DNA of 64,000 nucleotides from Bacteroidales bacterium (GTDB lineage: Bacteria; Bacteroidota; Bacteroidia; Bacteroidales; GCA-2748055). The stretch's first letter is position 1. Every line of letters starts with the position of its first letter. Under the pieces are notes generated by a model. It was not told where the DNA came from, searched no databases, and was given only the letters and a program-made list of their open reading frames with translations. Below, piece by piece: positions 34,957 to 49,424 of the stretch. A program made the position numbers and the translations under genes. The stretch lies in NCBI GenBank assembly GCA_040903745.1, contig JBBDUV010000047.1:72977-136976 (forward strand). Reading direction: 5' to 3'.

Positions 34957-34970
34957 ACGGGGAAAAATGA

Positions 34971-35111
34971 TCAGATAAAGTCTTTTTTGTCGAGCAAGTC
35001 CTGCAGGGTGGTTGATTCAAGGTGTTGGGTGACCTGCCTGTTGAGGGTGCCCCAGAACCCCCGGGCTTCGCATCCCACTCCGCCGCCACATGATTGAAAA
35101 AAATTCTCTAT
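34971..35111 (-). pseudogene. Rrf2-family regulator remnant (last ~46 codons only)
   Basis: The translation ...ENFFQSCGGGVGCEARGFWGTLNRQVTQHLESTTLQDLLDKKDFI aligns with the C-terminus of the intact Rrf2 protein at 41857-42270. Nothing upstream of that point resembles Rrf2. Confidence 0.6.
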
Positions 35112-35276: not shown

Positions 35277-35903
35277 ATGAAGTTTAAAAAAGAAAATTAC
35301 AGAGACCAAATTCGAGAAATCATTATTGATTTAATTTTAAAAGAGCAATTGGCATTTGGAGAAAAACTTTCATTGGCAGAGTATGCCAGAACTCTTGGCA
35401 CAAGTGTGACGCCTATCCGTGAAGCTTTTATACAATTAGAAATAGCCGGAGTCCTTGAATCAATACCCAATGTTGGATTTTGTGTGAAATCCATTTCCCA
35501 CACAGAAGCTGAAGAAATTTATACTTTAATTGGTATGATAGAAGAAAATGCTCTTTCTTCTAATTATTCAACTAAAACTATACGTAATTTAATGAAAATT
35601 GATGAAAAGATTAAAAATAGCAATTCGGTGCAAGAAAAACTATTTGCTGACAATGAGTTTCATAAATTACTTATTGATACAAAAAAGTATCACCATTCTG
35701 TTTCATTACTTAAGAATTTAAAGTCTTTGGTATTTTTATACGAACTTAAGTTCATGAAAAACAGAGATTCCAACATTAAAAGGGACGAAGATCATTACAA
35801 CATAGTAGAATTTATTCAAAAAGGGGAATCAATTACTGAACTAATAAAACTGCATTGGAAAAATAGTTATCAGTTTGTAATAAATCAAACTAAAATAAAA
35901 TGA
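35277..35903 (+). CDS. GntR family transcriptional regulator (FadR/FCD-like)
   Basis: The winged-helix motif reads GEKLSLAEYARTLGTSVTPIREAFIQLEIAGVLESIPNVGFCV. The C-terminal domain is helical. Confidence 0.75.
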   Translation: MKFKKENYRDQIREIIIDLILKEQLAFGEKLSLAEYARTLGTSVTPIREAFIQLEIAGVLESIPNVGFCVKSISHTEAEEIYTLIGMIEENALSSNYSTKTIRNLMKIDEKIKNSNSVQEKLFADNEFHKLLIDTKKYHHSVSLLKNLKSLVFLYELKFMKNRDSNIKRDEDHYNIVEFIQKGESITELIKLHWKNSYQFVINQTKIK

Positions 35904-35910
35904 GAAAATT

Positions 35911-38900
35911 ATGTTTATGAAAAAATCAGGCATAATATCCCGGTTGTCAGAACTTATTAATAGAATATCAAGTTCATTTATAGATCTGACAATAAACAAA
36001 AAACTGATTTATGGATTTGGTTTTGTTATTGTGTTAGGATTAATAACCTCAACTGTTCACTGGTTCATGCTCGATTTGCAATCAAAGAGTTATTCGTTAT
36101 CCAAAAATGCCGGAAAAATAACAGCTGACTTAAGGTTGCTAAGACAAGATGAAAAAAACTTCATGTTACGCGATGATCCAAAATATGCAAAACTGGTTAA
36201 ATCTGCATTGAATCAATTGCATAAAGTAGCCGAACAGCTTGATAATAAGGCATATAACGTGGGGGGGGGGGTATCTATTACAACCATTTTAGAAGACCTG
36301 AAAGCTTATGAAAAGAATTTTGACGATTACCTGACACTAAACAATAGAAAGCGGGCTGCCCTTGAGGAAATGATTAAACAAGGGCGGGATGTAGAGGAAT
36401 TATCTGACCAAATACGAGCCGACCAAAAGAAAGAATTACAGCAACTCGAAAAAGTTGCCATGTCGGCTGTTGATCAGATGCGCGACAAACGTGTGAAAGC
36501 CGATGATGCCAACCGCATGATAAAGTTGATGGACGAGGCCAGGCAGGAGGAGAAAAACTTTCTTTTACGCAAGAATGAAAATGATGCCAATTTGACCTTG
36601 ATGCTGGTCAATGATCTTATTGCACAGGCAAAAATAACCCACAATCGTTTTGATGATCCCCAGAACCAGGCCATGGCTAAAGCAATCATTTCTGCATCTG
36701 AAAAATATATAGCAGAATTCAAAGATGTCATTGAGTTGGAGGGTAACCAGCGGGAAGGCAGCATACTGATGAACCAAAAGATACAATTGGCCTTAGATGA
36801 AATGGTTAGACAAGGGCGGGATGTAGAGGAGTTATCCGATCAGATACGGGCGGATCAGAAAAAGGAATTGCTGCTACTTGAAGAAAGCTCAAGACCGGAT
36901 ATTACTGAGATGCGCGACAAACGTGTGAAAGCCGATGATGCCAACCGCATGATAAAGCTGATGGACGAGGCCAGGTCGCAGGAAAAAAACTTTCTTTTAC
37001 GCAATGATGAAGATGATGCCGATTTGACCTTGAAACTGGTCAGTGATCTTATTGAACAGGCTAAAACAACCCGCAATCGTTTTGGAGATCGTCAGAACCA
37101 AGCCATGGCTGATGCGATAATCACTGCAGCACAGCAATATAAAGACCAGTTTGTAAATGTCATTAAACTGGTAAAAGAACAGCAGCGGATCAGCATACAA
37201 ATGGACTCTAGAAAACAAGCTGCCCTTGAGGAAATGATTAAACAAGGGCGGGATGTAGAGGAATTATCTGACCAAATACGAGCCGACCAAAAGAAAGAAT
37301 TACAGCAACTCGAAAAAGTTGCCATGTCGGCTGTTGATCAGATGCGCGACAAACGTGTGAAAGCCGATGATGCCAACCGCATGATAAAGTTGATGGACGA
37401 GGCCAGGCAGGAGGAGAAAAACTTTCTTTTACGCAAGAATGAAAATGATGCCAATTTGACCTTGATGCTGGTCAATGATCTTATTGCACAGGCAAAAATA
37501 ACCCACAATCGTTTTGATGATCCCCAGAACCAGGCCATGGCTAAAGCAATCATTTCTGCATCTGAAAAATATATAGCAGAATTCAAAGATGTCATTGAGT
37601 TGGAGGGTAACCAGCGGGAAGGCAGCATACTGATGAACCAAAAGATACAATTGGCCTTAGATGAAATGGTTAGACAAGGGCGGGATGTAGAGGAGTTATC
37701 CGATCAGATACGGGCGGATCAGAAAAAGGAATTGCTGCTACTTGAAGAAAGCTCAAGACCGGATATTACTGAGATGCGCGACAAACGTGTGAAAGCCGAT
37801 GATGCCAACCGCATGATAAAGCTGATGGACGAGGCCAGGTCGCAGGAAAAAAACTTTCTTTTAAGACAAAATACCGAAGATGCTGAATTGACACTCGAGT
37901 TAGTCGACAGTCTTATTGCTCAAGCTTATATCACCAAAAAACGTTTTAACGACCTCCAGAACCAAACCATGGCTCAAACAATCGTTGCTGCATCTGAAAA
38001 ATATACAGAGGAATTCAGGAATGTGATTGAAATTGTTAACAAACAACATTCTGCTGCAGAATTAATGATTGCAAAAGCCCGCGAAGTAGAGAAAACAGCC
38101 CAAAAAGTAGAGAAAATACAGGACATGGCGATGAACACAAGTGTTATTACTGCTCGTTTGGTAAGTGCATTTGCCGAAATTTTTAAAATAATAATTTTAA
38201 TATTACTGGCTTGGGTTTTAATGCGTGTTATATCTGATCCTGTTCTTAAGTTAAGCAATATCATGAGCAACCTTTCTAAGGACGATACTAATGTAAACAT
38301 ACCTGAACAGGAGCGGGGCGATGAAATAGGTGTGATGGGCAAAGCAATTCAGATTTTAAAAGAACGGGTAATCGAACGCAACCGCTTCCAGAAAGAGATA
38401 ATTATGGCCAGGGATGAGGCTGAACGCACAAATCTGGAGCTTAAGACAGTCAATGAGGAACTGGAAGCTTTCGCGTACTCGGTCTCTCACGACCTTCGGG
38501 CCCCGCTGAGGGCAATCAACGGTTTCACGAGAATCATATTGAAAAAATATGAAGATACCATGGATGAAGAGGGAAAACGCCAGGCCAATGTAATCATGGA
38601 AAACGCCTTAAAAATGAGCCAGCTAATAGATGACCTCCTAGGCTTTTCACGCCTGGGTCGTAAATCCATGAATTTTTCTCGAATTGATATGAAAAAAATG
38701 GCAAATGACATTATTTCAGAATTGAAAAAAGAAAATAAAGGAAGAAACATATCTTTTACCGTGGCGGATTTGCCAACTATAAACGCTGATTCTCAGTTGT
38801 TGCATCAGGTATGGTTAAACCTTGTTTCAAATGCATTCAAATTTACTTCTCACCTCAAAAAAGCAGAGATATCAATTGGTTATCAGGAAAATAAAAAGAA

Positions 38901-39120
38901 ACCTACCTTTTTTATCAAGGATAATGGTGCAGGTTTTGATATGCAATATGCCGACAAATTATTCGGTGTGTTTCAACGGCTTCACAGCGATAAAGAGTTT
39001 CAAGGTACAGGTGTGGGTTTGGCTTTGGTGCAGCGCATTGTTCACCGTCATGGAGGCAAAGTCTGGGCAGAAGGAGAAGTAGGCAAGGGTGCAACTTTTT
39101 ATTTTTCGATGCCAAAATAA
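35911..39120 (+). CDS. Sensor histidine kinase with a ~690-aa periplasmic region made of five helical repeats (TM - 5 modules - TM - HAMP - HisKA - HATPase)
   Basis: TM1 is LIYGFGFVIVLGLITSTVHWFML. Five E-K-N-F-(L/M)-L-R motifs occur at a 144-aa period. TM2 lies near aa 748-774. A HAMP-like linker follows. The H-box is SVSHDLRAPLRAINGF, and the other motifs are NAFKFT, DNGAGFD and GTGVGLAL. Confidence 0.85.
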   Translation: MFMKKSGIISRLSELINRISSSFIDLTINKKLIYGFGFVIVLGLITSTVHWFMLDLQSKSYSLSKNAGKITADLRLLRQDEKNFMLRDDPKYAKLVKSALNQLHKVAEQLDNKAYNVGGGVSITTILEDLKAYEKNFDDYLTLNNRKRAALEEMIKQGRDVEELSDQIRADQKKELQQLEKVAMSAVDQMRDKRVKADDANRMIKLMDEARQEEKNFLLRKNENDANLTLMLVNDLIAQAKITHNRFDDPQNQAMAKAIISASEKYIAEFKDVIELEGNQREGSILMNQKIQLALDEMVRQGRDVEELSDQIRADQKKELLLLEESSRPDITEMRDKRVKADDANRMIKLMDEARSQEKNFLLRNDEDDADLTLKLVSDLIEQAKTTRNRFGDRQNQAMADAIITAAQQYKDQFVNVIKLVKEQQRISIQMDSRKQAALEEMIKQGRDVEELSDQIRADQKKELQQLEKVAMSAVDQMRDKRVKADDANRMIKLMDEARQEEKNFLLRKNENDANLTLMLVNDLIAQAKITHNRFDDPQNQAMAKAIISASEKYIAEFKDVIELEGNQREGSILMNQKIQLALDEMVRQGRDVEELSDQIRADQKKELLLLEESSRPDITEMRDKRVKADDANRMIKLMDEARSQEKNFLLRQNTEDAELTLELVDSLIAQAYITKKRFNDLQNQTMAQTIVAASEKYTEEFRNVIEIVNKQHSAAELMIAKAREVEKTAQKVEKIQDMAMNTSVITARLVSAFAEIFKIIILILLAWVLMRVISDPVLKLSNIMSNLSKDDTNVNIPEQERGDEIGVMGKAIQILKERVIERNRFQKEIIMARDEAERTNLELKTVNEELEAFAYSVSHDLRAPLRAINGFTRIILKKYEDTMDEEGKRQANVIMENALKMSQLIDDLLGFSRLGRKSMNFSRIDMKKMANDIISELKKENKGRNISFTVADLPTINADSQLLHQVWLNLVSNAFKFTSHLKKAEISIGYQENKKKPTFFIKDNGAGFDMQYADKLFGVFQRLHSDKEFQGTGVGLALVQRIVHRHGGKVWAEGEVGKGATFYFSMPK
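36261..36271 (+). repeat. G11 homopolymer inside the sensor kinase CDS (codons ~118-122, VGGGV)
   Basis: Read directly as aacgt-G11-tatc. The tract is in frame as given. Confidence 0.95.
36355..36999 (+). repeat. 645-bp direct repeat, copy 1 (within the kinase CDS)
   Basis: Base-for-base identical by eye to 37219-37863. The offset is 864 bp, or 288 codons. Confidence 0.9.
37219..37863 (+). repeat. 645-bp direct repeat, copy 2 (within the kinase CDS)
   Basis: Identical to 36355-36999. Antisense ORFs in the supplied track also repeat exactly at +864. Confidence 0.9.
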
Positions 39121-39154
39121 TAAATATGAATATAAAACTTTAAAGAAAAATTAA

Positions 39155-39592
39155 ATGAGCTACAATCTCCTTATAATTGAAGATAACCCAAATGATGCTG
39201 AATTAATAACCATTGCATTAGGGGAAGCAAAACTGGGCAAAAAAGCGTTTATATGCGAAAATGGTGCAGAGGCGCTGGATTTTATTTTTAGCAAAGGAAA
39301 ATATGCCGGGGCAATTAATCAAATTAACCTGAAGGCCATTTTTCTTGACCTTAAAATGCCGAAGGTTAATGGTCTGGAAGTATTAAAGCAGGTTAAATCA
39401 AACAAAACCACAAAGAGAATACCAGTTATCGTTGTCACATCTTCGAGTCAGTATTCAGACATCTCTACGGCTTACGACCTTGGTGTTAACAGTTATATCG
39501 TGAAGCCTGTTGATTTTGATGAATTTCAACGGAAAATTACTGTAGTAGCATCATATTGGTTGAATGAAAATATTGAACCGATGAATCAATAA
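39155..39592 (+). CDS. Stand-alone response regulator receiver protein (CheY/Rcp1-like)
   Basis: Motifs IIEDNPNDAEL, the phospho-acceptor context IFLDLKMPKVNG, VVTSS and SYIVKP are present. There is no output domain. Confidence 0.85.
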   Translation: MSYNLLIIEDNPNDAELITIALGEAKLGKKAFICENGAEALDFIFSKGKYAGAINQINLKAIFLDLKMPKVNGLEVLKQVKSNKTTKRIPVIVVTSSSQYSDISTAYDLGVNSYIVKPVDFDEFQRKITVVASYWLNENIEPMNQ

Positions 39593-39623
39593 TCAATATT
39601 TCATCAAACAAAATAACAAGGTT

Positions 39624-41555
39624 ATGGAAGAAACATTACGCGTATTAATTCTTGAAGACAATCCGGCAGATGCAGAACTTGCAAACGAAGAATTGAAGGA
39701 AACGCTGAATAAATACACGGTAAAGGTAGTTGACACGAAAAATGATTTTATTCTGGCTATGGATAATTATAAACCTGACCTTATTATTTCCGACTACCAG
39801 TTGCCTGGTTTTAACGCTTTGTCTGCTTTAAAGATTGCCCGGGAAAAATCACCATTTATTCCTTTTATTATTTATACCGGTGCTATTAAGGAAGAAGCAG
39901 CTGTTGAATGTATGAAGTCTGGTGCGGATGATTATGTTATGAAGGAAAACATGATCCGGCTTCGAACGGCAACCCTGCATGCACTGGAAAATAAAAAAAG
40001 CGAAAAGGAAAAGTATCAGAGCCTGCAATCACTTAAGAAAAGCGAAGAAAAATACCGTTTATTGATAGATAGCTCAATCGATGCCATTTACTTGTTATAT
40101 AACCGGAAATTTGAATTCATTAATAAGGCGTTTGAAAAACTATTTGGTTATACGTATGAAGAAGTGAACCAACCCGGATTCGATTTTACAGAATTGGTAG
40201 CACCGAAAAGCAGGCCTGTGATAGAAGAAAGAGCTAAAAAAATTGCCCGGGGCGAAAAGCCCGGGTCGAAATATGAATTTACAGCGGTTTCAAAAACCGG
40301 CAGGGAAATAGAAGTTGAAGTTAATGAAAGTTATATTGAGTATAATCAAGGAATTGCGACACAAGGCATAGTTCGCAATATAACCGAGCGCAAACAATAT
40401 GAAGAAGAACTGATAAAGGCAAAAGAAAAAGCGGAAGAGTCTGATAAGCTGAAAACCGCCTTTTTGCAGAATATGAGCCATGAAATACGGACACCCATGA
40501 ACGGGATACTTGGCTTTACTTCATTGCTTTTAGAGCCTGATTTAACCAGTGAGAAAAGGTTTAATTTTATCGAAATAATACAAAAATGCGGAGAACGGAT
40601 GTTGAATACCATAAATGACATTATTGAAGTTTCGAAGATAGAGGCCGGATTGGTAAGCATGAATTTGGCCCCAGTCAATGTGAATGCACGCCTTTATGAG
40701 ATAAAAGATTTTTTTACTCCTGAAGCTGAACAAAAAGGGTTACAACTGACCCTTGAAAATATATTGCCCAATGACCATCCTGATATAAGAACCGATAAAA
40801 ATAAACTAGATTCCATTTTGGCAAACCTTGTTAAGAATGCCATTAAATTTACTGACAGTGGAACAGTTAAATTAGGATGTAACTTTCAGGAGCCATTGTT
40901 GGAATTTTACGTAAAAGATACCGGTATTGGAATTCCGGCACATCGCCGTGAGGCTGTCTTTAACCGGTTTGAACAGGCTGATATTGCCGACACAAGGGCA
41001 TTTCAGGGTTCCGGTTTAGGATTGGCCATAGCAAAATCTTATATCGAAAAACTGGGAGGAAAAATATGGCTTGAATCGGAAGAAGGCAAAGGTTCAACAT
41101 TTTATTTTTCGTTGCCTGCTAAAAGCGATATGGAAGAAAAATTAATTTCTGATAAAAAAATATCCGTTCACAACGAAAATGAAAAATCCAAAGTTAAGGG
41201 TTTGAAAATTCTAATCGCCGAAGACGATGAGACATCACGAAAATATCTTTCCCTTTTGGTTAATGATTTTGGCACGGAGATTTTAGAAGCAGAAACAGGT
41301 AATAGAACCATTGAATTATGCCGACAGAATAAAGACATCGATTTAATACTTATGGATATCCGAATGCCCGGTTTGGATGGCTACGAAGCAACCCGCCGGA
41401 TAAGGGAATTTAACAAAGAGATAGTAATTATCGCACAAACCGCTATTGCACTTTCCGGCGCCAGGGAAAAGGCAATAGAGGCAGGTTGTAATGATCATAT
41501 TTCGAAACCAATTAACAAAAACGAATTACTCACAATTATTGAACAGTACGTTTGA
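39624..41555 (+). CDS. Hybrid sensor histidine kinase/response regulator (REC-PAS-HisKA-HATPase-REC)
   Basis: The N-terminal REC reads LEDNPADAEL...ISDYQLPG. A PAS-like region follows. The H-box is MSHEIRTPMNGILGF, and the other motifs are NAIKFT, DTGIGI and GSGLGLAI. The C-terminal REC reads ILMDIRMPGLDG. Confidence 0.85.
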   Translation: MEETLRVLILEDNPADAELANEELKETLNKYTVKVVDTKNDFILAMDNYKPDLIISDYQLPGFNALSALKIAREKSPFIPFIIYTGAIKEEAAVECMKSGADDYVMKENMIRLRTATLHALENKKSEKEKYQSLQSLKKSEEKYRLLIDSSIDAIYLLYNRKFEFINKAFEKLFGYTYEEVNQPGFDFTELVAPKSRPVIEERAKKIARGEKPGSKYEFTAVSKTGREIEVEVNESYIEYNQGIATQGIVRNITERKQYEEELIKAKEKAEESDKLKTAFLQNMSHEIRTPMNGILGFTSLLLEPDLTSEKRFNFIEIIQKCGERMLNTINDIIEVSKIEAGLVSMNLAPVNVNARLYEIKDFFTPEAEQKGLQLTLENILPNDHPDIRTDKNKLDSILANLVKNAIKFTDSGTVKLGCNFQEPLLEFYVKDTGIGIPAHRREAVFNRFEQADIADTRAFQGSGLGLAIAKSYIEKLGGKIWLESEEGKGSTFYFSLPAKSDMEEKLISDKKISVHNENEKSKVKGLKILIAEDDETSRKYLSLLVNDFGTEILEAETGNRTIELCRQNKDIDLILMDIRMPGLDGYEATRRIREFNKEIVIIAQTAIALSGAREKAIEAGCNDHISKPINKNELLTIIEQYV

Positions 41556-41720
41556 AAAAACTTATTTATATTGCCATCACACAGGCGTAAGCACATCCCG
41601 TAAACCGCTCAAAGCCCCGTTAAAATCAAAGTTTACGGGAAGAGCTTCCGCCTCTCCAGCCCAAGTAACCGCCTTTCAGGTCGGTTTTTAGGATTCCCCA
41701 CGCTCAAAAAAAAACAAAAT

Positions 41721-41747
41721 AAACCTGCCCGTCCGGCAGGCGGGTTT
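41721..41747. terminator. GC-rich hairpin between convergent genes (terminator candidate)
   Basis: AAACCTGCCCGTCCGGCAGGCGGGTTT, with stem CCTGCC / GGCAGG or the alternative CCCG / CGGG, is flanked by A-rich and T-rich runs. Confidence 0.4.
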
Positions 41748-41856
41748 GTGCTTTGTGGATAGGTAGGAGCAGATTGACAATGACAAGAAAATATAAGCTA
41801 AATAAATGATAAACAAACGGATATGAATGAACACCAGTTGCCAACGGGAATAATGA

Positions 41857-42270
41857 TTAGATCAGCTCATTTTTATCGAGAAAATCCTGCAGGGTGGTTG
41901 ATTCAAAAAGTTCAGTTACCTGTTTGTTGAGGATACCCCAGAACCCCCTGGCTTCGCACCCATTTTCGCGGTCGCATTTAAAATTCTCATTCATGCAGTC
42001 GATCACACAGATGCCCGGTTCGAATGCGCTGTGGATGTCGAGCACGGTTATATCTTCTGCTGGTCTTGTTAGGACATAGCCGCTTTTTTTGCCTTTTACA
42101 TTGGTGATGAGTCCGGCCACCTTCAGTGCGTGAATGATATGGTCGAGGTATTTATTGGAAAGCTCCTGAGATTTGGCTATATCTTTTTGGAACACCCCAT
42201 TATCAGGTGAATGCTTTGCGATCTCGATCATGGACCTAAGGCCATAGCGTGTACGTGTACTAAATTTCAA
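41857..42270 (-). CDS. Rrf2 family transcriptional regulator (Fe-S cluster type)
   Basis: The N-terminus reads MKFSTRTRYGLRSMIEIA and the HTH reads QKDIAKSQELSNKYLDHIIHALKVAGLI. A Cys cluster lies in the C-terminal third (CVIDC...C...C). Confidence 0.85.
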   Translation of the reverse strand: MKFSTRTRYGLRSMIEIAKHSPDNGVFQKDIAKSQELSNKYLDHIIHALKVAGLITNVKGKKSGYVLTRPAEDITVLDIHSAFEPGICVIDCMNENFKCDRENGCEARGFWGILNKQVTELFESTTLQDFLDKNELI

Positions 42271-42887
42271 AGCTGCGTCAGATTGATATCCGGTTCAACA
42301 GGTAAACTAAATTCAAAGTTAATCATTAGTTCGTCATGTACTTTAATCAGGCCAAAGGTTTTTTCCGGGGGTGACAAATTAAAATCAGTCAGCTTAAGTG
42401 TTTTGCTTCCGCTGACAGATATCCTGCTGTCCATACAACTTGAAACCTCGCAAGGGACCTGGTAATAGCGAGTGACGCCGCTTACGACGACGCCGATCTT
42501 CAATGAATAGACAGAATAGCCATTGAACAGGGTTGTAAATTCCGATTCATTCATAAAGATCTGAATGTAGGGGTATTTCTTTACGTTGATGAGCTGGAGG
42601 AAGTCCCTGTATACAAATTTGTTGGTTGCTTTGAAGTTCCTGACTGGAACCAGAATCATAAAGCCATGTTCTTCCGGAACGGGGATCCATCGTGAGTCGC
42701 CGATCCCGCAGACCAGGTCGCCCGGAACCTCCTGGTGAAGTGCGAAATCATTAATGTTGGTCTCACCGGTAATATGGATGTAATTGTTGCAACTGCTGTG
42801 GTTTGAAGAAAGTGTGGATTGACCAAGAGTCAATCCACACTTAAAGATAAACATCAATAGAATTACATGATGGATTGCACCGTGCAT
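42267..42887 (-). CDS. YceI-like domain protein (secreted); start set at the internal ATG
   Basis: The signal-like N-terminus is MHGAIHHVILLMFIFKCGLTLG. The C-terminal motif KLTDFNLSPP is paralogous to KMKDFNISPP of the YceI protein at 44651-45268. There is a 4-nt overlap with the Rrf2 start. Confidence 0.55.
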   Translation of the reverse strand: MHGAIHHVILLMFIFKCGLTLGQSTLSSNHSSCNNYIHITGETNINDFALHQEVPGDLVCGIGDSRWIPVPEEHGFMILVPVRNFKATNKFVYRDFLQLINVKKYPYIQIFMNESEFTTLFNGYSVYSLKIGVVVSGVTRYYQVPCEVSSCMDSRISVSGSKTLKLTDFNLSPPEKTFGLIKVHDELMINFEFSLPVEPDINLTQL

Positions 42888-42917
42888 CAAATATTCTTCT
42901 GCAACGCCACCGGTCGT

Positions 42918-43010
42918 ACCTTCGATATCCCGAGCAGTTGCATTTCCCGGACCGCTCCTGGCTGCACTTCCTCTTACACCTTCGATCCCCCGGACGGTTG
43001 CATTTCCTGG
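42918..43010. repeat. Two ~33-bp direct repeats, 60 bp apart
   Basis: ACCTTCGATATCCCGAGCAGTTGCATTTCCCGG (42918-42950) and ACCTTCGATCCCCCGGACGGTTGCATTTCCTGG (42978-43010). Confidence 0.8.
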
Positions 43011-43142
43011 AGGGCCTTCAGTTGTAAATGCTCCCGCCGCAGCATCGATTCTGTGATCTTTCGCGCACCCAGAGGGAAAGGGAGGGTCCTTTTTACTGAT
43101 ATATTGTGCAATATCGGGCATTGGTTTTTCTCAGCAATGGGA

Positions 43143-44378
43143 TTAAAAGCTGATGGCGGCTTCGAACATCACACCGTTGAATTCAGCATTCTCCCCATAG
43201 GAGGCAATGAAGTTCTTATAATCCTGGGTCACATAGTCGAGTTTAACCAGGATATTTTCGGTGAGGTTCCATCCTCCCCCGGCTTCGATCCTGCTCACCG
43301 ACATATCGTTGCTGTTGGCAACCGTATTGTATTTCGCACCGGCATAGAATTGTTCTGTCTTTCCGAAGCGGTACAGCCCCTGTACGCCAATCTGGTTGAA
43401 GTTAAACTCCGATCCGTTGAACGGGCTCGTTCCGGCGTTTGTTTCATACGTACCGAAGAATTCAAAACCTTTGAATTTCGTGAAGAGGTTGAACATAAAT
43501 GCGTTTAGCTCATCAGAGAATCCAGGTCCCCATCTTCCTGTTGTATGTCCACTTGCAGGATTGACATCAGCGGAACCATCAGCGGTCTGCCGCTGCATAA
43601 CAAGGTAGAACCGTGATCCTGTTCGGTCGCCGTTATATAGTGATCCGAAGTGGTTGTTGCTGCTGTGGTATCCTGAAACGGTGGCGCGGATCCTGAGATC
43701 ATCATTCAGATGGGTGTCGTATCCGGCTTTCCAGTAGGCTGCCAGTTCCTCGTGGGCGTTGTAGGGGGTGTAATTCCCGGAGAAGGCGCTATAGCCCGCC
43801 AGCGCGGGCTTCAGCGTTCCTGTGGTAATGGCGGCTAAAACGATGATACCGTTGTGGCGGAAGAGCGCTTCGAAGGCTGGGGCGGTGGTGAAGGCATCCA
43901 TGATGTAGTTGCCTGTGAAAGGATTGTTGATCACCCTGCCGTTATCGGAACGGAAGAAGTGGGCATCTCCGTAGTTCAGTTCCATGACCCCGGCTTTCAG
44001 GGTGAGGTAGTCCATGATGTTATCGACAGCTGCGGAGTTAAGGAACGGCAGTTCATCCATCTGGAGGTATCCACCTTTTACCCAAGCTTCTACGTGGTGA
44101 CGCGATGATAGGTAGGTGGTGAGGTTCACTTTGATGCCCTGCGCGAGTTCAGCGTTGATCGCGAAATTAGCGGTGGGAAGGTTGAGTCCCGTTCCCAGAA
44201 GTATCAGCATGGAATCGGCCGAGTGACTAAGTGACTGGTACTGCATGGCGAAGTCGGCACCGAGGGTGACTTTCACCTTTTCGAAATCCTCGTTGTTCAG
44301 AGGTTCCGGTTCGAACGTTTGAGCATAGGAAGTGGCCCCGATGAGCAGGGCGGCAAGAGTTATCATTGCTTTTTTCAT
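43143..44378 (-). CDS. Outer-membrane beta-barrel (porin-like) protein
   Basis: The signal peptide is MKKAMITLAALLIGATSYAQ. The sequence has an alternating beta-strand pattern and ends in a C-terminal Phe (EAAISF). Confidence 0.6.
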   Translation of the reverse strand: MKKAMITLAALLIGATSYAQTFEPEPLNNEDFEKVKVTLGADFAMQYQSLSHSADSMLILLGTGLNLPTANFAINAELAQGIKVNLTTYLSSRHHVEAWVKGGYLQMDELPFLNSAAVDNIMDYLTLKAGVMELNYGDAHFFRSDNGRVINNPFTGNYIMDAFTTAPAFEALFRHNGIIVLAAITTGTLKPALAGYSAFSGNYTPYNAHEELAAYWKAGYDTHLNDDLRIRATVSGYHSSNNHFGSLYNGDRTGSRFYLVMQRQTADGSADVNPASGHTTGRWGPGFSDELNAFMFNLFTKFKGFEFFGTYETNAGTSPFNGSEFNFNQIGVQGLYRFGKTEQFYAGAKYNTVANSNDMSVSRIEAGGGWNLTENILVKLDYVTQDYKNFIASYGENAEFNGVMFEAAISF

Positions 44379-44650
44379 GGTTTGATTTGTTTAAATGAAT
44401 ATATTATGAATAAAAAGGATTTTTAGAGATGACCTGAGGTTTGCGCATGTCGGCTCAATTTGCAATATTCCAAAGTAATTTTTTGGGTTGTCCAGAGATT
44501 CGCGCATACAGGTTCTGTTTTCAAAAAGCCGGATCAGTTTTTTAGAAACGTCATGAGGTTCATTCATGTCTGGCAATTTTTTAACATCCCTGAACAGTTT
44601 TTTGATTATCCCGAGGTTTGCACATTTTGCTTGGTTATCAATAATCCAGA

Positions 44651-45268
44651 TCAGTTTCGGGAAGACTGTCCCACTTCTGCATAGACTGATTCAGGCTGAA
44701 AGTTGACATTGAAGTGCACGGTTACCTCTTCTCCTGTTTTCATGGTGCCCATCATGGCAGTTGGAGGGGAGATATTGAAATCTTTCATATTGATCTTCTC
44801 TTTTCCGGTTACCGAGATGGTAAAGTCTTTTTGAATCACACCGGAGAAAGGAATGGTTACAGGTAACGTTTTTCCGGCGATGGACAGGGTGCCGTGGGCA
44901 GTGCCTGACAGGTTTTTCGCTGTAGCTGACAGATCATTTACAGATTGCAGAGTAAAGGCGATTTTGTTATGCTTATCTGACTTCAGGGCATTGTAGGTCT
45001 TTTTATCCATCAGGGAGTTCTTACTTTTCAGTCCTTCAGAAAGAACTGAAAAGTTAACATTCAGGATCTCATCAATTTTCTGATCCTGCAGATTCACCTT
45101 CATGCTGGCATCCATCTCTGTTGCAGTCATCTCCCAGTCGTGCACAGAAGATGTTCCTTCAATGGTGATGCTGCTGGTTTTCGGGTCCAGTTTGAATGTT
45201 GTCTGTGCCAGGAGTGCCTGGCTGAACAGGAAGATGGACAGGGTTAGGATTAGATATCTTGTTTTCAT
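44651..45268 (-). CDS. YceI family protein
   Basis: A signal peptide precedes the YceI pattern FKLDPKTSSITIEGTSSVHDW...GTLSIAGKTLPVTIPF...DFNISPP. Confidence 0.8.
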   Translation of the reverse strand: MKTRYLILTLSIFLFSQALLAQTTFKLDPKTSSITIEGTSSVHDWEMTATEMDASMKVNLQDQKIDEILNVNFSVLSEGLKSKNSLMDKKTYNALKSDKHNKIAFTLQSVNDLSATAKNLSGTAHGTLSIAGKTLPVTIPFSGVIQKDFTISVTGKEKINMKDFNISPPTAMMGTMKTGEEVTVHFNVNFQPESVYAEVGQSSRN

Positions 45269-45594
45269 GGCTATCGTGTTTTATTTAACAATTTTTTATT
45301 TGAAATCCTGGTTATTCGGTTGGATTAAATAATTTCACACATCTAAAAAATATAAATCCTATAGAATAACTAGTACAAATGTATCAATAGTGATGTTATT
45401 TTACAAACAGTAATATGATATCGAATGATGTATTATAATAATTTGGTGACGAATGATGTGTAAATATGAGTGTAAAGGTCATTAAATGAGGTTTATATAA
45501 TAAAAAATTGTTTATATAGAAACATTTTAAATTACAAAACATTCATGCTTCAGTGATTTTTTTAATTAAGAAGAGGGGTTAATGAACGACTTGT

Positions 45595-45610
45595 TACAGA
45601 CATGTCTGTA
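45595..45610. repeat. Perfect 16-bp palindrome TACAGACATGTCTGTA (REP family A core)
   Basis: Read directly. It shares the ACAGACATG core of the 27.8-kb and 34.9-kb elements. Confidence 0.8.
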
Positions 45611-45702
45611 TCAGAAATGGGACCACATAGATTATTAAGCCCCATCATTGCTTTTTTCCGAAGACCGGGGCCATTCATAATTAATCCAGATTTTTACCGG
45701 AG

Positions 45703-46824
45703 CTATTCGGGGCGAAAGCAGAAGAACCCGGGATTGATGCCGGTAGTAAAGGTATCGACTGGGGTGCCGTCGGGACGGTAGCGGTAGACACGACCCCGGC
45801 TCACCTGGTCGATCGCATCGGCGATATATACCTCGCCGGAGTACGGATCAATACCCAGTCCGTAGAAACCCCCGGAAAGACCGGTCGTAGCTGGTCCTTC
45901 AATAAACAGGTCCGGAGGATCATCGGACAGTACCATCAGTCTGTAGGCATGTCTGTTTAAAAAGTAAAGCGTATCGCCGGTCCCGTTGATCTTCAGTTCC
46001 GAAGGGTGGTCGTTCAGCGGAAAGCGGATCGTCTTTTCGATCTTCCGTGTCCCGGGATCGATCTGCACCAGTGCAGGTTTCTCATTGCCTGCGGGGTTCC
46101 CCTCGAAACCACCGTCACACAACACCCAGAGCCGTTCAAACCGGTCGAGCACCATCGAATTGGGTTGAAGCGGCACTTCGATGGAATCGGTCACCTCGTC
46201 CGTCTCTGTGTCGATCACCAAAATCTTGTTATCGTAGCTCCAGCAGTTGGTAAACACCTCGTTGCCGAACTGCACCATCTGCTCGGTGGAATGCTGATTG
46301 AACCGGGATGTGGGATTGCTTACATCGATGTACCCGGTGATCGCGTATGTCTGCGGGTTCACGATGGTGATCGCCCGGGCGTAGAGGTCGGTGACATAGG
46401 CCTTTTCCGGATCGACAAAGAGAATCTGGCGCGGCGAGGAGAGCCCGGTGATCTTTCCTTCGTACCCGAAGGTGTGGATGTTGATTACATAGATCTTACC
46501 AGAGTTGTTCACCACGATATACCCGAGGCTGTCTCGGATTACCATCGATTGCGCTACATCGCCCAGTGGCACGCCGTTGGTGCGGTAAAAAACATCGTTC
46601 AACAGTTTCATCGAGTCGATCATGTAGTAGGAGAGCGAGGCATTGTCGTACATGAAATTTCCCTCGTTCACAATGAAGAGTCCAGACTGCCGGTTGATGT
46701 GCCCGTTAAGCAGCGTGTCGTACCTCACCTGCAGGTCGTTCATCCCGTACCACGCCTCATCGTCCATGCAGCCGTTGCACAGCAGCAGAAGGGGAGAGAG
46801 CCATATGAGATGTTTCAGGGTCAT
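45703..46824 (-). CDS. Surface lipoprotein with a beta-propeller fold (BtuG-like / YncE-like cell-surface protein)
   Basis: The lipoprotein Cys is followed by an acidic export signal ([12 protein letters not shown]). Repeated blade-like segments are present. The gene lies immediately downstream of the TonB-dependent receptor. Confidence 0.55.
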
Positions 46825-46826
46825 GA

Positions 46827-49424
46827 TTAATATTCAAATTTCAGGTGTAGCATGTATGAGCGGCCCGGCATGAAGTGTTGCAGCTCGTTTCTGTAAGTCT
46901 CGTTGAACAGGTTGTCGACCTCCAGTTCCAGGTTGATTTTTTGAGGTGAGCGCCCGGCACCATTTTTACCGGTCCCCACTTCAAACCTCTTACCGATCCG
47001 CATGTTGTTCATGAAATAAGGGTAGAGACTATAAAGCCGTTCGTTTCCTGAAGTGCCGTTCAGCCGCTCGACCCCATTCAGACCTGGCAGTTCTTGCGAA
47101 TCATCTGCCGGTCCGCCGCTATTACCGCTCATCAACTGTCTCGTTCCCATGGCATTGTATTGCCACTGCAGATACCACCCCCTGTTGGTCACCGAAACAA
47201 ATGCATTTCCCGAAACCTTTGGTATAAACGGCAACTGCACTCCCCGGGAATTATTGTCTGGGGAGCTGGCTCCATCCGCCGTTCCCCCGTCTGCCGTTTC
47301 CCCGGCCGATCCTGCTCCCCCACCTGTTATCGTTCCGCTATAATCCCGTGTATTTGTGAGCGCAAAGTTCCCGTGCAGCTGCAGCATTGTTCGCCGCACC
47401 GTCACCTTCACCGCAAGCTGGTATTCTAGTCCGTAGGACCGCACCTCGGCCAGGTTTACCGGTTCCCAGTACCCTTTGAATCCCGGCAGCCAGAGGATCC
47501 AATCGTTGATCCGCGAATAGTACCCTGTAAGCGATGTATTGACGGTCTGCCCCCCTGCCGCTTTTTCCCAGCGCACCGAGGATTCACCCGTGTAGCCCTC
47601 CTCGGGAAGCAGATCGGGGTTTCCACCGGGCTGCCAGTATAGGTCGTTGAGGGTGGGGTGGTGGTAGTTCCGGGCGAAATTCGCCTGCAGCACCAGGTCA
47701 TGCTTTTCCAAAGGACGAAAATTCAGTCCGAATGTATAGATTAGGGGTGACCGGTAATCAGATACGAAATCCTTCCGCATTTGGAGCGAGAGCATCAGCA
47801 GCTCCGTCGCACTGAGGTAGAGTCCGCCGAACAGCGATCCCTCGAGACGGACAGTATCGTAACCGGTATGGGTGGACGAGTCGTACGTGGCGATGCTGTA
47901 CCTGTTGAGCGCGGTTCGCGCATTGGCAGATAAGCGGTCCGAAAAGTTGCGGCTGAGCTCGCCGCTGTTGAGCCAGCTGAACATCCGGCTCTCGGAATCG
48001 ACGTTTATCTGCCGGTGCAGTCCGGGCACCTCTGTCTCCATGGTGTAGCCGAGCCGCTGGTAGTCGACCCCGCTTCGCAGCTGCAACTTCGACTGCTCCC
48101 CGTAATAGCTGTACTCCGTGACATTCCTGATTGTTTGGTCGGCTTGCAGGTTGTCGCGTTGCAATCCACCGGTCTGGTATTCGCTGCTCAGTACCGTGGG
48201 AACGGAACGGTTGGCTGTCTGCAGCCAGGTGCGGTTGGAGATCACGGAGTTGCCGGGGGGAGGATGGGCCGTGGATTTTGTATCGGGGGAGGTCCCGGTG
48301 GCTCCATATCCGGTGGTGGAGGAGGCTAAGGGAATCTGCTGAACGGTGCTTCCTGTCCCGGTGGTGGAGGAGGTGGTGGCTAAAGGGGGTTGCTGAACGG
48401 TGGCTCCATATCCGGTGGTGGAGGAGGCTGGAGAGCTGTGCTTCCCGGTGGGGGGGTGGTCATTGGGATCGGCGGGAGATGAGGTACTGCGAACGTCGGT
48501 GGGGTGATCGGTATAGGTTATACGGCCTGAAGGGTCATCCTTATCCTCGGCGTTACTGCGAACAGAAGATGATCTGCGGCTACCGGACCGTTTGGAGGGT
48601 CGAAAGTAGAACTCCTGACTGATCCCCGATTTGCTATAGGCGGCGTTGCGGTTCTGTTGGGTGGGATGGCAGAGCTCACCGGTGGCGCTATCCTTATCGA
48701 TGATGTTTTTGTTGACGAACGGGTAGTTGTTCTCCGAGCCGGAGGAGTAGAGGCGGGTGGTTGACTGAAACCTCTGGTTGCCGAGGTTGAACCGGGCCAT
48801 GCCACCGGCTGTAATAAAGCTCCCGTACTCGGTGTGGATCTGTCCGCCGGCCCTGTTCGACCAGTCGGGCAGGTTCCTGATTTCAATGTGGCCGCCGAGA
48901 CCGCCGCTCCGCGACTCAACCGATGCTGCGCCGTGGTGGATGTTCAGCTCATCGATGAGAAAGACCGGCACGAGGGAGAAGTCGACCATCCCGAGCATCG
49001 GGGAGTTGATGCTGAGTCCGTTCCAACTCACCTGCGTGTGGGATGGGGCGGTGCCACGGAACGATGCAGTGGCGAGCGCACCCCTGCCGTAGTCGCGGAT
49101 GTATATGTTGGTATTCTCAGCAAGCAGCGTCGAGAGGTCGCTGTGTACCTGGTGCTGCAGGATGAGGGTGTCGATCGTAACCCGCTTCATGCCGGCCTCC
49201 TCTTTCAGGGGCATGGTGGAACGGGTGACCGCCACTTCGCTGATGCTGAAGATTGAATCGGTTATGCCCTGTCCGGTTGCCGGGGGGGTGATATTGGCCG
49301 TCAGGATGATGAGGCAGAGGGCAGGCAGGATCGGGTGACGGACCTCCATCCTGACTGCCCTCTGCCTCATGGAGATGGACTTCATCCAGCGGATAAGGGG
49401 CTGTATATCGGGCCGTCTCTTCAA
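46827..49424 (-). CDS. TonB-dependent receptor, BtuB-like, with large low-complexity loop inserts (start uncertain)
   Basis: Plug motifs are [34 protein letters not shown] beta-barrel follows, and the C-terminus is aromatic (LKFEY). The likely true start is an internal Met (MRQRAV or MEVRHPIL). Confidence 0.85.

What the first reader, a model, noticed from the sequence alone, without database searches (positions are those of the whole stretch)
35911..39120. Sensor kinase whose ~690-aa periplasmic region is a tandem array of five helical E-K-N-F-L-L-R modules
Between TM1 (aa ~31-53) and TM2 (aa ~748-774) the protein repeats a helical unit of about 144 aa. Each unit is centred on a motif such as DEARQEEKNFLLRKNENDA, and the first, divergent copy reads LRQDEKNFMLRDDPKY. 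This resembles the signature helix of CHASE3/HBM-type four-helix-bundle sensors.

Ordinary sensors have one such bundle, or two in HBM. Five in series would give a very long rod-like periplasmic domain. I know of no characterised kinase with this architecture.
Basis: partly seen in the sequence, partly recalled or inferred. Interest (0 to 1): 0.7.

Follow-up and report, generated by a model that had tools for sequence, protein, structure and literature searches.

The report
Multi-module HBM-type sensor kinase, module count doubtful
The gene encodes a sensor kinase whose outer part is a rod of stacked helical bundles related to a known two-bundle sensor domain (HBM), but the count of five is doubtful and four is my best estimate, because a second assembly of the same strain orders the repeats differently.

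Summary
The ORF (35911-39120, 1069 aa) and five E-K-N-F-[LM]-L-R motifs at aa 81/214/358/502/646 are real in the window. The repeat is the unit of the HBM (helical bimodular, McpS-type) sensor domain, not CHASE3. Homologues carry PF16591, a homologue profile hits McpS (2YFA), and the AF2 model's best PDB matches are McpS.

The architecture is not unique. Among 250 relatives I count 2 units (120), 3 (65), 4 (61), 5 (two besides this one) and 7 (one). AF2 models give a simple folding rule: each unit adds one four-helix-bundle level, and the chain must turn once at the apex.

The count of five is doubtful. Units 2 and 4 are 100% identical in DNA (645-nt exact repeat). A second assembly of the same strain (22 kb of identical flanks) has a different array with a 77-nt segment missing here. 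The window's order is what one de Bruijn loop traversal would give. The fifth unit cannot be placed by AF2. A four-unit U1-A-B-C fits the folding rule, helix-length matching and the closest kinase homologues.

Verdict: a new variant of a known kind, with four modules my best estimate (about 0.55, inferred, no reads examined). A G11 tract in the gene, where three short-read contigs end, is a side lead.

The parts
35911..39120 (+). Sensor histidine kinase ORF, 1069 aa as assembled
36001..36069 (+). TM1 (aa ~31-53)
   Evidence: hydropathy. AF2 helix aa 30-87
36070..36354 (+). Unit 1 (U1, aa 54-148). It lacks the leading helix and has motif EKNFMLR at aa 81 and a short (18-aa) mid-L segment
36261..36271 (+). 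G11 homopolymer in codons 117-121 (NVGGGV), in the loop between helices b1 and L1. A change of one G gives a stop at aa 127 or 134
   Evidence: Three short-read contigs of the same strain end inside it
36355..36786 (+). Unit A (aa 149-292). Fused-type junction 'LQQLEKVAMSAVDQM', motif at aa 214
36787..37218 (+). Unit B (aa 293-436). Turn-type junction 'LLLLEESSRPDITEM', motif at aa 358
37219..37650 (+). Unit A' (aa 437-580), 100% identical in DNA to unit A. Suspected extra loop copy
37651..38151 (+). Last unit (aa 581-747). First half is identical to B up to 37863, and second half is C2, the true last-unit tail with a short mid-L segment. The C1 half seen in L001 is missing
36355..36999 (+). 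Copy 1 of the exact 645-nt direct repeat
37219..37863 (+). Copy 2 of the exact 645-nt direct repeat
38152..38232 (+). TM2 (aa ~748-774)
38215..38370 (+). HAMP (aa 769-820)
38464..38658 (+). HisKA (aa 852-916, H-box SHDLRAPL)
38788..39114 (+). HATPase_c (aa 960-1068)
35277..35903 (+). GntR-family regulator directly upstream
39155..39592 (+). Stand-alone receiver protein (145 aa)
39624..41555 (+). REC-PAS-HisKA-HATPase-REC hybrid kinase (643 aa). This pairing is conserved next to homologues P0002 and P0005

Best explanation
The gene encodes a transmembrane sensor histidine kinase. Its periplasmic domain is a multi-module extension of the HBM (helical bimodular, McpS-type) fold.

The sequence unit (133-144 aa) has three helices:
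- 'a', ~34 aa, ending in R-x-x-E-K-N-F-x-L-R;
- 'b', ~25 aa;
- 'L', ~70-80 aa.

Each unit adds one four-helix-bundle level to a single rod. Units on the way up have L fused to the next 'a' helix. The chain turns once at the apex and the remaining units run back down to TM2. With an even unit number the turn is at the central L-to-a junction. With an odd number it is a hairpin in the middle of the central L helix.

In every module the conserved motif sits where McpS binds its carboxylate ligands. I infer that each level keeps a small-ligand pocket and that occupancy is passed down the long helices to TM2, HAMP and the kinase core. The kinase probably feeds the adjacent receiver and REC-PAS-kinase-REC hybrid in a conserved cassette.

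The real gene most likely has four units (U1-A-B-C, about 925 aa, rod about 20 nm). The fifth unit in the window is most likely an extra pass through an A-B loop of the assembly graph.

Shown: family membership at the level of homology, the range of unit numbers, the folding rule at AF2 and sequence-statistics level, and the disagreement between assemblies.

Inferred: four as the true number, ligand binding in each module, and the phosphorelay partners.
For: Family.
- 278 homologues of the periplasmic part were found, and nearly all of the 120 listed carry PF16591 HBM.
- Pfam HBM is above threshold in P0018 (72 bits), P0039 (56) and P0024 (48).
- A profile of two-unit homologues hits McpS 2YFA at E=3e-5, aligning the motif to both McpS Arg helices.
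- Foldseek's top four hits for the AF2 model are McpS LBD chains (prob 1.0), then TorS and McpZ sensors.

Folding rule.
- AF2 of the window protein has pLDDT >95 for aa ~128-578. Helix lengths close units 1-4 into four levels.
- AF2 of the three-unit P0002 has pLDDT >90 for aa 50-430, with a hairpin at 264-268 (EQPRD) in the middle of the central L. I predicted this hairpin before running the model.
- In 56 four-unit proteins the central junction is longer (18.4 vs 15.9 aa) and richer in Pro/Gly (73% vs 23-30%; Pro 16% vs 0%).
- In 63 three-unit proteins the central mid-L carries Pro in 21% vs 0%.

Four rather than five.
- The exact repeat and the assembly disagreement are set out in the observation check.
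- With k<=62 the graph of U1-A-B-C has repeat nodes X (62 nt) and Y (74 nt). Losing the C1 edge and passing once round the loop gives exactly the window order. Clipping the U1 stub left by the poly-G break gives exactly contig L001, which starts at the first base of Y (reasoning in note 5).
- Junction pattern: the window is fused, turn, fused, turn, which cannot return to the membrane. U1-A-B-C is fused, turn, fused, as in the four-unit kinases P0003-P0015.
- Mid-L lengths are U1 18, A 29, B 29 and C 18 aa, so the antiparallel partners match only in U1-A-B-C.
- The fifth unit has pLDDT <50 although 45-50 of 53 alignment rows cover it.

Cassette.
- The same kinase, REC and REC-PAS-kinase order occurs next to P0002 and P0005.
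Against: - Both assemblies contain the B2-to-A1 junction, which would not exist in a four-unit gene. If the final k or read threading exceeded 62 nt, that junction is real and the array has at least two A units.
- I do not know how the window was assembled. It runs through the G11 tract where three short-read assemblies stop, so it could come from long reads, and then five would be real.
- Natural five- and seven-unit arrays exist. In P0121 and P0136 they alternate two unit types, so growth by two-unit blocks, the same event as an A-B duplication, does happen in this family.
- The folding rule rests on AF2 monomer models and Pro/Gly statistics, not on experiment. I had no coordinates and read the topology from helix lengths.
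- Pfam HBM does not reach threshold on this protein itself (9.4 vs 29.8 bits).
- No ligand is known for any member with this motif. Near-invariance of the motif across modules and phyla could reflect a structural rather than a binding role.
Confidence: 0.55

Rival explanations
1. The window is right. The strain carries five units because of a very recent tandem duplication of A-B followed by recombination between the 74-nt Y repeats. The other assembly is a different variant or is itself misassembled. The array would then be an actively varying locus.
For: - The ORF is intact.
- The B2-to-A1 junction is present in both assemblies.
- The window spans the G11 tract that breaks three short-read assemblies, which hints at better or longer reads.
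- The family grows by two-unit blocks (P0121, P0136).
- Natural five-unit proteins exist (P0125, P0136).
Against: - The junction pattern fused-turn-fused-turn cannot bring the chain back to the membrane. Natural five-unit proteins instead show Gly/Pro in the middle of the L helix of unit 3.
- AF2 cannot place unit 5.
- Segment C1 exists in the same strain's other assembly, and sequence cannot be invented by misassembly.
- There is zero divergence over 645 nt.
- The 1069-aa product is not on record in any indexed assembly.
Confidence: 0.2
2. The true array has six units (U1-A-B-A-B-C). The window lost one unit by collapse between the two Y copies, and contig L001 is the correct 3' part.
For: - L001 reads [B2]-A-B-C and is one unit (432 nt) longer than the window from the same anchor.
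- This needs no false junction in either assembly except B1-Y-C2 in the window.
Against: - The pattern fused, turn, fused, turn, fused ends four levels away from the membrane.
- An exact 926-nt tandem duplication is normally collapsed, not kept, by short-read assemblers.
- The closest kinases have three or four units.
Confidence: 0.17
3. The repeats are CHASE3, 4HB_MCP or coiled-coil spacers with no relation to HBM, for example a structural stalk only.
For: - Weak sub-threshold CHASE3 and 4HB_MCP_1 hits in one two-unit homologue (P0039).
- Foldseek also lists SMC and dynein coiled coils.
Against: - No CHASE3 or 4HB_MCP hit on this protein at E<=1.
- HBM is the consistent family in homologues.
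- McpS is the top hit by both profile and fold.
- Coiled-coil hits have TM-scores of 0.1 or less on the target.
Confidence: 0.03

Closest known systems
HBM domain (Pfam PF16591); McpS ligand-binding region of Pseudomonas putida, PDB 2YFA/2YFB
   Same: - Same sequence unit and same signature helix.
- Same helix order (a, b, L) and stacked four-helix bundles, each made of one a-b hairpin plus two passing long helices.
- The motif aligns to the two McpS Arg helices.
- Found in MCPs and histidine kinases between two TM helices.
   Different: - HBM is defined as two modules (254-position model). Here there are four (or five) modules, and relatives have 3-7.
- The motif K-A-D-D-A-N-R...R-x-x-E-K-N-F-x-L-R is far more conserved than in McpS.
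- Pfam's model does not reach threshold on this protein.
- The ligand is unknown.
McpZ periplasmic domain of Sinorhizobium meliloti, PDB 8F7N (Salar et al. 2023, Proteins 91:1394), three concatenated four-helix bundles
   Same: - An all-helical sensor with more than two stacked four-helix-bundle modules.
- It appears among the Foldseek hits (E=3e-3, prob 1.0).
- It is cited as the first trimodular LBD structure.
   Different: - No sequence-profile hit from this family.
- From memory of the abstract, which I could not read here, that fold arose within Rhizobiaceae.
- It has three modules only and is an MCP, not a kinase.
TorS periplasmic sensor domain (PDB 3I9W, 3I9Y, 3O1H)
   Same: It is a histidine-kinase sensor made of two stacked four-helix bundles. 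Fold hits have TM 0.48-0.59 on the target.
   Different: - It has two modules.
- It senses through the binding protein TorT.
- No sequence relation was detected.
CHASE3 (PF05227) and 4HB_MCP_1 (PF12729)
   Same: Helical extracytoplasmic sensor modules with a related N-terminal helix. One homologue shows weak sub-threshold hits.
   Different: Neither is detected in this protein, and both are single modules.

Membership tests
HBM (PF16591) | Match to the Pfam HBM model above the gathering score (29.8 bits) | tested here: not met
   This protein scores 9.4 bits, E=0.84. Homologues do pass: P0018 72.2, P0039 55.7 and P0024 47.8 bits. Most of the 120 listed relatives carry precomputed PF16591.
HBM (PF16591) | Detectable homology to the founding member McpS-LBR | tested here: met
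   A profile of 14 two-unit homologues hits 2YFA at E=3.2e-5, with both units aligned to both McpS halves.
HBM (PF16591) | Fold of stacked four-helix bundles built from long and short helices | tested here: met
   AF2 helix pattern. Foldseek top hits are 2YFB and 2YFA with prob 1.0 and TM about 0.5 on the target. This is a model only, and I had no coordinates.
HBM (PF16591) | Exactly two modules (bimodular) | tested here: not met
   Five unit hits as assembled, four most likely.
HBM (PF16591) | Small-molecule binding in the modules | not testable with these tools
   Only positional equivalence of the motif to the McpS Arg helices is shown. That those Arg residues bind ligand is from my memory of the McpS structure paper.
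CHASE3 (PF05227) | Match to the Pfam CHASE3 model | tested here: not met
   No hit at E<=1 on this protein. P0039 scores 22.3 bits, below the cutoff of 28.
McpZ-type helical trimodular domain | Sequence or fold relation to 8F7N | tested here: inconclusive
   Foldseek gives E=3.2e-3, prob 1.0, TM 0.32 and rmsd 53 Å. No profile hit.
Classical transmembrane sensor histidine kinase | TM1-sensor-TM2-HAMP-HisKA (H-box)-HATPase_c | tested here: met
   HAMP 29.6, HisKA 42.3 and HATPase_c 82.4 bits, all above cutoff. Two hydrophobic segments. H-box SHDLRAPL is visible in the sequence.
Slipped-strand phase-variable (contingency) gene | Homopolymer in the coding region whose length varies in the population and switches the frame | tested here: inconclusive
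   G11 is the only G/C run of 8 or more in 64 kb, and a change of one G truncates the protein. Contig ends carry 11, 12 and 14 G, but that may be an Illumina poly-G artefact. No reads were examined.

The most novel reading that the evidence does not exclude
HBM units form a length-adjustable periplasmic rod. Two to seven stacked ligand-pocket modules would be roughly 10-35 nm by helix length, grown in two-unit steps. In this Bacteroidales strain the array would be actively varying (five units in one assembly, a different array in another with identical flanks) and would be switched on and off by a G11 slipped-strand tract. That would make it a contingency locus for a sensor kinase whose reach across the periplasm changes.
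Probability: 0.12. Interest if true: 0.75.

Novelty: new variant of a known kind. Interest (0 to 1): 0.42.

Why it matters
Extracytoplasmic sensor domains are catalogued as one- or two-module folds, with a single three-module structure (McpZ) treated as an exception.

This survey shows that the HBM unit is used as a stackable building block. In the 1.84-billion-protein representative library, 252 proteins match the unit profile at E<=1e-30, and the fetched relatives carry 2 to 7 modules. A simple, testable rule says where the chain turns.

Helix length suggests a four-module rod of about 20 nm. From general knowledge of Gram-negative envelope dimensions, not tested here, that would span most of a periplasm. 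This raises the question of whether these receptors integrate several ligands or sense something far from the inner membrane.

For annotation, Pfam's two-module model under-detects such proteins, scoring below threshold here.

For genome scanning, this case shows that exact intragenic repeats in metagenome-assembled genomes can inflate repeat counts.

Tried and rejected
- Pfam on the protein itself gave only a 9-bit HBM hit and no CHASE3 or 4HB_MCP.
- Single-sequence phmmer against PDB found nothing relevant. A homologue profile was needed.
- Exact-pattern scans found nothing, so no independent contig spans the array. I scanned for the U1 motif region and for the all-unit 35-mer in genome contigs, and for the 35-mer in metagenome contigs.
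- Look-up of the 1069-aa product found nothing.
- The TTG-start version of the GntR gene found nothing. The ATG version worked.
- Logan contigs (k=31) break at the G tract and at the end of Y, so they cannot settle the copy number.
- The McpZ paper is not held, so its content is from memory.
- A search for 'PcpI' (PDB 9SNN, best profile hit) gave no usable paper.
- I considered hairpin-type folding for units A and B, because their mid-L segments are 11 aa longer, like the hairpin unit of P0002. I rejected it because every such arrangement puts more than four helices in one level.
- I considered the alternative Eulerian path U1-C1/B2-A-B1/C2. I rejected it because its junction pattern (fused, fused, turn) does not close.
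Full report
**1. What is in the window**

The ORF listing gives one ORF, 35911..39120 on the + strand, of 1069 aa. Hydropathy shows only two hydrophobic segments, at aa ~31-56 and ~744-781. Pfam places HAMP (769-820), HisKA (852-916) and HATPase_c (960-1068) after the second one, all above threshold.

Between the two TM helices the motif E-K-N-F-[LM]-L-R occurs at aa 81, 214, 358, 502 and 646. Tandem Repeats Finder reports a 432-nt period at 36360-38017. A unit HMM gives five full-length hits.

**2. The array is not five independent copies**

At offset 864 nt there is an exact direct repeat of 645 nt (36355-36999 = 37219-37863). I call the units U1, A, B, A' and B*.
- A and A' are 100% identical in DNA.
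- B* equals B up to 37863 and then continues with a distinct tail (C2).
- All other unit pairs are 70-78% identical in DNA.
- This is the only long repeat in the 64-kb window apart from one 132-nt pair.

**3. A second assembly of the same strain disagrees**

The best database hit, P0001, is a partial protein at the very start of contig JBBDIF010000100.1 of a Bacteroidales MAG (GCA_040880565.1).
- Its DNA (L001) is identical to the window from 37790 to 49120 with no mismatch.
- Its array reads [second half of B]-A-B-C.
- The first half of C (L001 ~1220-1296, 'QKNELQQLEKAATSAIDEMNDKRMK') is absent from the window.
- L001 positions 1-938 equal window 36926-37863 exactly, one unit out of register with the colinear alignment.

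The upstream side was recovered through the GntR protein. Contig ...104.1 of the same MAG and two Logan contigs (SRR27977663, SRR27977661) are 100% identical to the window up to 36271. All three end inside a G11 run at 36261-36271, with 14, 12 and 11 G at their ends.

So the same strain, with 22 kb of identical flanks, has been assembled with different arrays. The window's 1069-aa product is not on record in any indexed assembly.

**4. How the two assemblies could both arise from a four-unit gene (inference)**

Exact shared segments are X (62 nt, the start of A and of C) and Y (74 nt, shared by B and C). For k<=62, the graph of U1-A-B-C has these edges:
- U1 to X;
- X to [A..B1] to Y;
- Y to B2 to X;
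- X to C1 to Y;
- Y to C2.

If the short C1 edge is lost, the only way to include B2 is one pass round the loop. That gives U1-A-B-A-B1/C2, which is exactly the window.

If the stub of U1 left by the poly-G break is clipped as a tip, A1 can only be entered from B2. Backward extension then stops at Y. That gives exactly L001, which begins at the first base of Y.

A six-unit gene gives the same graph, so the assemblies alone cannot decide. A Logan contig starting 30 nt before the end of Y fits the branching at Y but adds nothing on copy number.

**5. What the unit is**

The periplasmic part finds 278 relatives, and most of the 120 listed carry PF16591 (HBM).
- Pfam HBM is above threshold in P0018, P0039, P0024, P0019 and P0031 but not in this protein.
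- CHASE3 is not detected here.
- A profile of two-unit relatives hits PDB 9SNN/9SMY and McpS 2YFA (E=3e-5). It aligns 'aRrqEKNFil' to McpS 'LRIARLQYMI' and 'VRIDVRGYI'. From my memory of the McpS structure paper, these helices carry the ligand-binding arginines of the two modules.
- The best PDB matches of the AF2 model are the four McpS LBD chains. TorS sensor domains and the three-module McpZ domain 8F7N follow.

**6. Variation in unit number**

I searched 1.84 billion representatives with the unit profile. It finds 1918 proteins at E<=1e-3 and 252 at E<=1e-30.

On the 250 proteins fetched, my HMM counts are as follows:

| Units | Proteins |
|---|---|
| 2 | 120 |
| 3 | 65 |
| 4 | 61 |
| 5 | 3: this protein, P0125 (an MCP) and P0136 (a hybrid kinase) |
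| 7 | 1: P0121 |

The sample is biased towards long arrays because they score higher.

P0121 and P0136 alternate two unit types, so arrays grow in two-unit blocks. The closest full-length kinases have three units (P0002, 52% identity) or four units (P0003-P0015).

**7. Folding rule**

AF2 of aa 29-790 has pLDDT >95 for aa ~128-578. Its helices are 30-87, 90-115, 120-220, 223-246, 250-325, a loop at EESSRPD, 331-364, 367-390, 394-508, 511-534 and 538-615.

I read each unit as a (34 aa, ending in the motif), b (~25 aa) and L (~75 aa). On that reading, units 1-4 give four levels with exactly four helices in each. U1 and A go up, the turn is at the A-to-B junction, and B and A' go down.

Each extended unit moves the chain two levels. 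An even number therefore needs one turn at the central junction. An odd number needs a hairpin in the middle of the central L. I wrote this prediction down before modelling the three-unit P0002. That model (pLDDT >90 for aa 50-430) shows helices 235-263 and 269-348 separated by a loop at EQPRD, in the middle of the central L.

Sequence statistics agree:
- In 56 four-unit proteins the central junction averages 18.4 aa with Pro/Gly in 73% (Pro 16%). The other junctions average 15.9 aa with Pro/Gly in 23-30% and no Pro.
- In 63 three-unit proteins the central mid-L has Pro in 21% against 0% for unit 1.
- The two natural five-unit proteins have Gly/Pro in the mid-L of unit 3.

**8. Applying the rule to this gene**

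The junctions are fused (U1 to A), turn (A to B, 'EESSRPD'), fused (B to A') and turn (A' to B*).
- The window order gives up, up, down, down, up, which ends away from the membrane.
- The six-unit version ends four levels away from the membrane.
- U1-A-B-C gives up, up, down, down, the pattern of the four-unit kinases.

The mid-L segments are 18 aa in U1 and in the C tail but 29 aa in A and B. The antiparallel long helices therefore match in length only in U1-A-B-C, with U1 paired to C below and A paired to B above.

AF2 gives pLDDT <50 to the fifth unit although 45-50 of 53 alignment rows cover it.

I therefore rate four units at about 0.55, five at 0.2 and six at 0.17.

The main counter-arguments are these:
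- The B2-to-A1 junction is present in both assemblies.
- The way the window was assembled is unknown.
- Two-unit duplications are the natural growth mode of the family.

**9. Mechanism (inferred)**

The rod would be about 20 nm long, built of stacked four-helix bundles. Each bundle has the nearly invariant K-A-D-D-A-N-R...R-x-x-E-K-N-F-x-L-R helix at the position of the McpS pockets.

Ligand occupancy in one or more levels would shift the long helices that lead into TM2 and HAMP, and so set kinase activity.

The gene sits in a cassette of GntR regulator, kinase, 145-aa receiver and REC-PAS-HisKA-HATPase-REC hybrid. The same kinase-receiver-hybrid order is found next to P0002 and, without the small receiver, next to P0005. 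This suggests a branched phosphorelay.

No ligand can be named from these data.

**10. Novelty**

The held literature describes HBM as bimodular and cites McpZ as the first trimodular LBD. Searches for three or more helical modules returned nothing on arrays of four or more.

The finding is therefore a new variant of a known kind at the family level. The specific claim of five modules in this gene is probably an assembly effect.

Noticed in passing
window 36261-36271: G11 run inside the kinase gene (codons 117-121, in a predicted loop). It is the only G/C homopolymer of 8 or more in the 64-kb window. G10 or G12 would truncate the protein at aa 127 or 134. Three short-read contigs of the same strain (one MAG contig, two Logan contigs) all end inside it, with 14, 12 and 11 G. 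It is either a slipped-strand phase-variation tract or an Illumina poly-G failure.
   Followed up: partly
window 34960-35091 and 41846-41977: A 132-nt direct repeat (79-83% identity) brackets the GntR-kinase-receiver-hybrid-kinase block. The downstream copy is the 3' end of the Rrf2-family gene (41857-42270, minus strand) and the upstream copy looks like a remnant of it. The block has lower GC (38-42%) than its neighbours (~50%), and the closest cassette is in an Ignavibacteria-type contig (P0002). This suggests the cassette was inserted or exchanged.
   Followed up: partly
P0121 (1360 aa, representative library): This protein has seven HBM-type units between two TM helices, a periplasmic part of about 900 aa. 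Units alternate between one type that keeps E-K-x-F and another where the motif is replaced by 'DAK(S/A)L(Q/R)(M/V)AL'. P0136 (five units) shows the same alternation, and I noticed similar motif-less middle units in three-unit relatives such as P0058 and P0076 without checking them systematically. Arrays seem to grow 3 to 5 to 7 in two-unit blocks.
   Followed up: partly
window 38437-39117 (aa 843-1069) and 39624-41552: The kinase core matches the C-terminal part of the NCBIfam LvrA model (E=9.5e-84, 282 bits, far below the 1200-bit cutoff). The neighbouring hybrid kinase matches the LvrB model N-terminus (E=3.5e-43). The pair may be related to the Leptospira LvrA/LvrB type of paired hybrid kinases.
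   Followed up: no
window 1-64000: GC content per 2 kb swings from 33% (12-14 kb) to 57% (48-50 kb), which is unusually patchy for one bacterial contig.
   Followed up: no
PDB 9SNN/9SOU/9SOY and 9SMY: The best solved-structure hits of the two-unit profile are 'ancestral PcpI' (273 aa) and a 158-aa 'HAMP domain-containing protein', ahead of McpS. I found no usable paper on them in the held library.
   Followed up: partly
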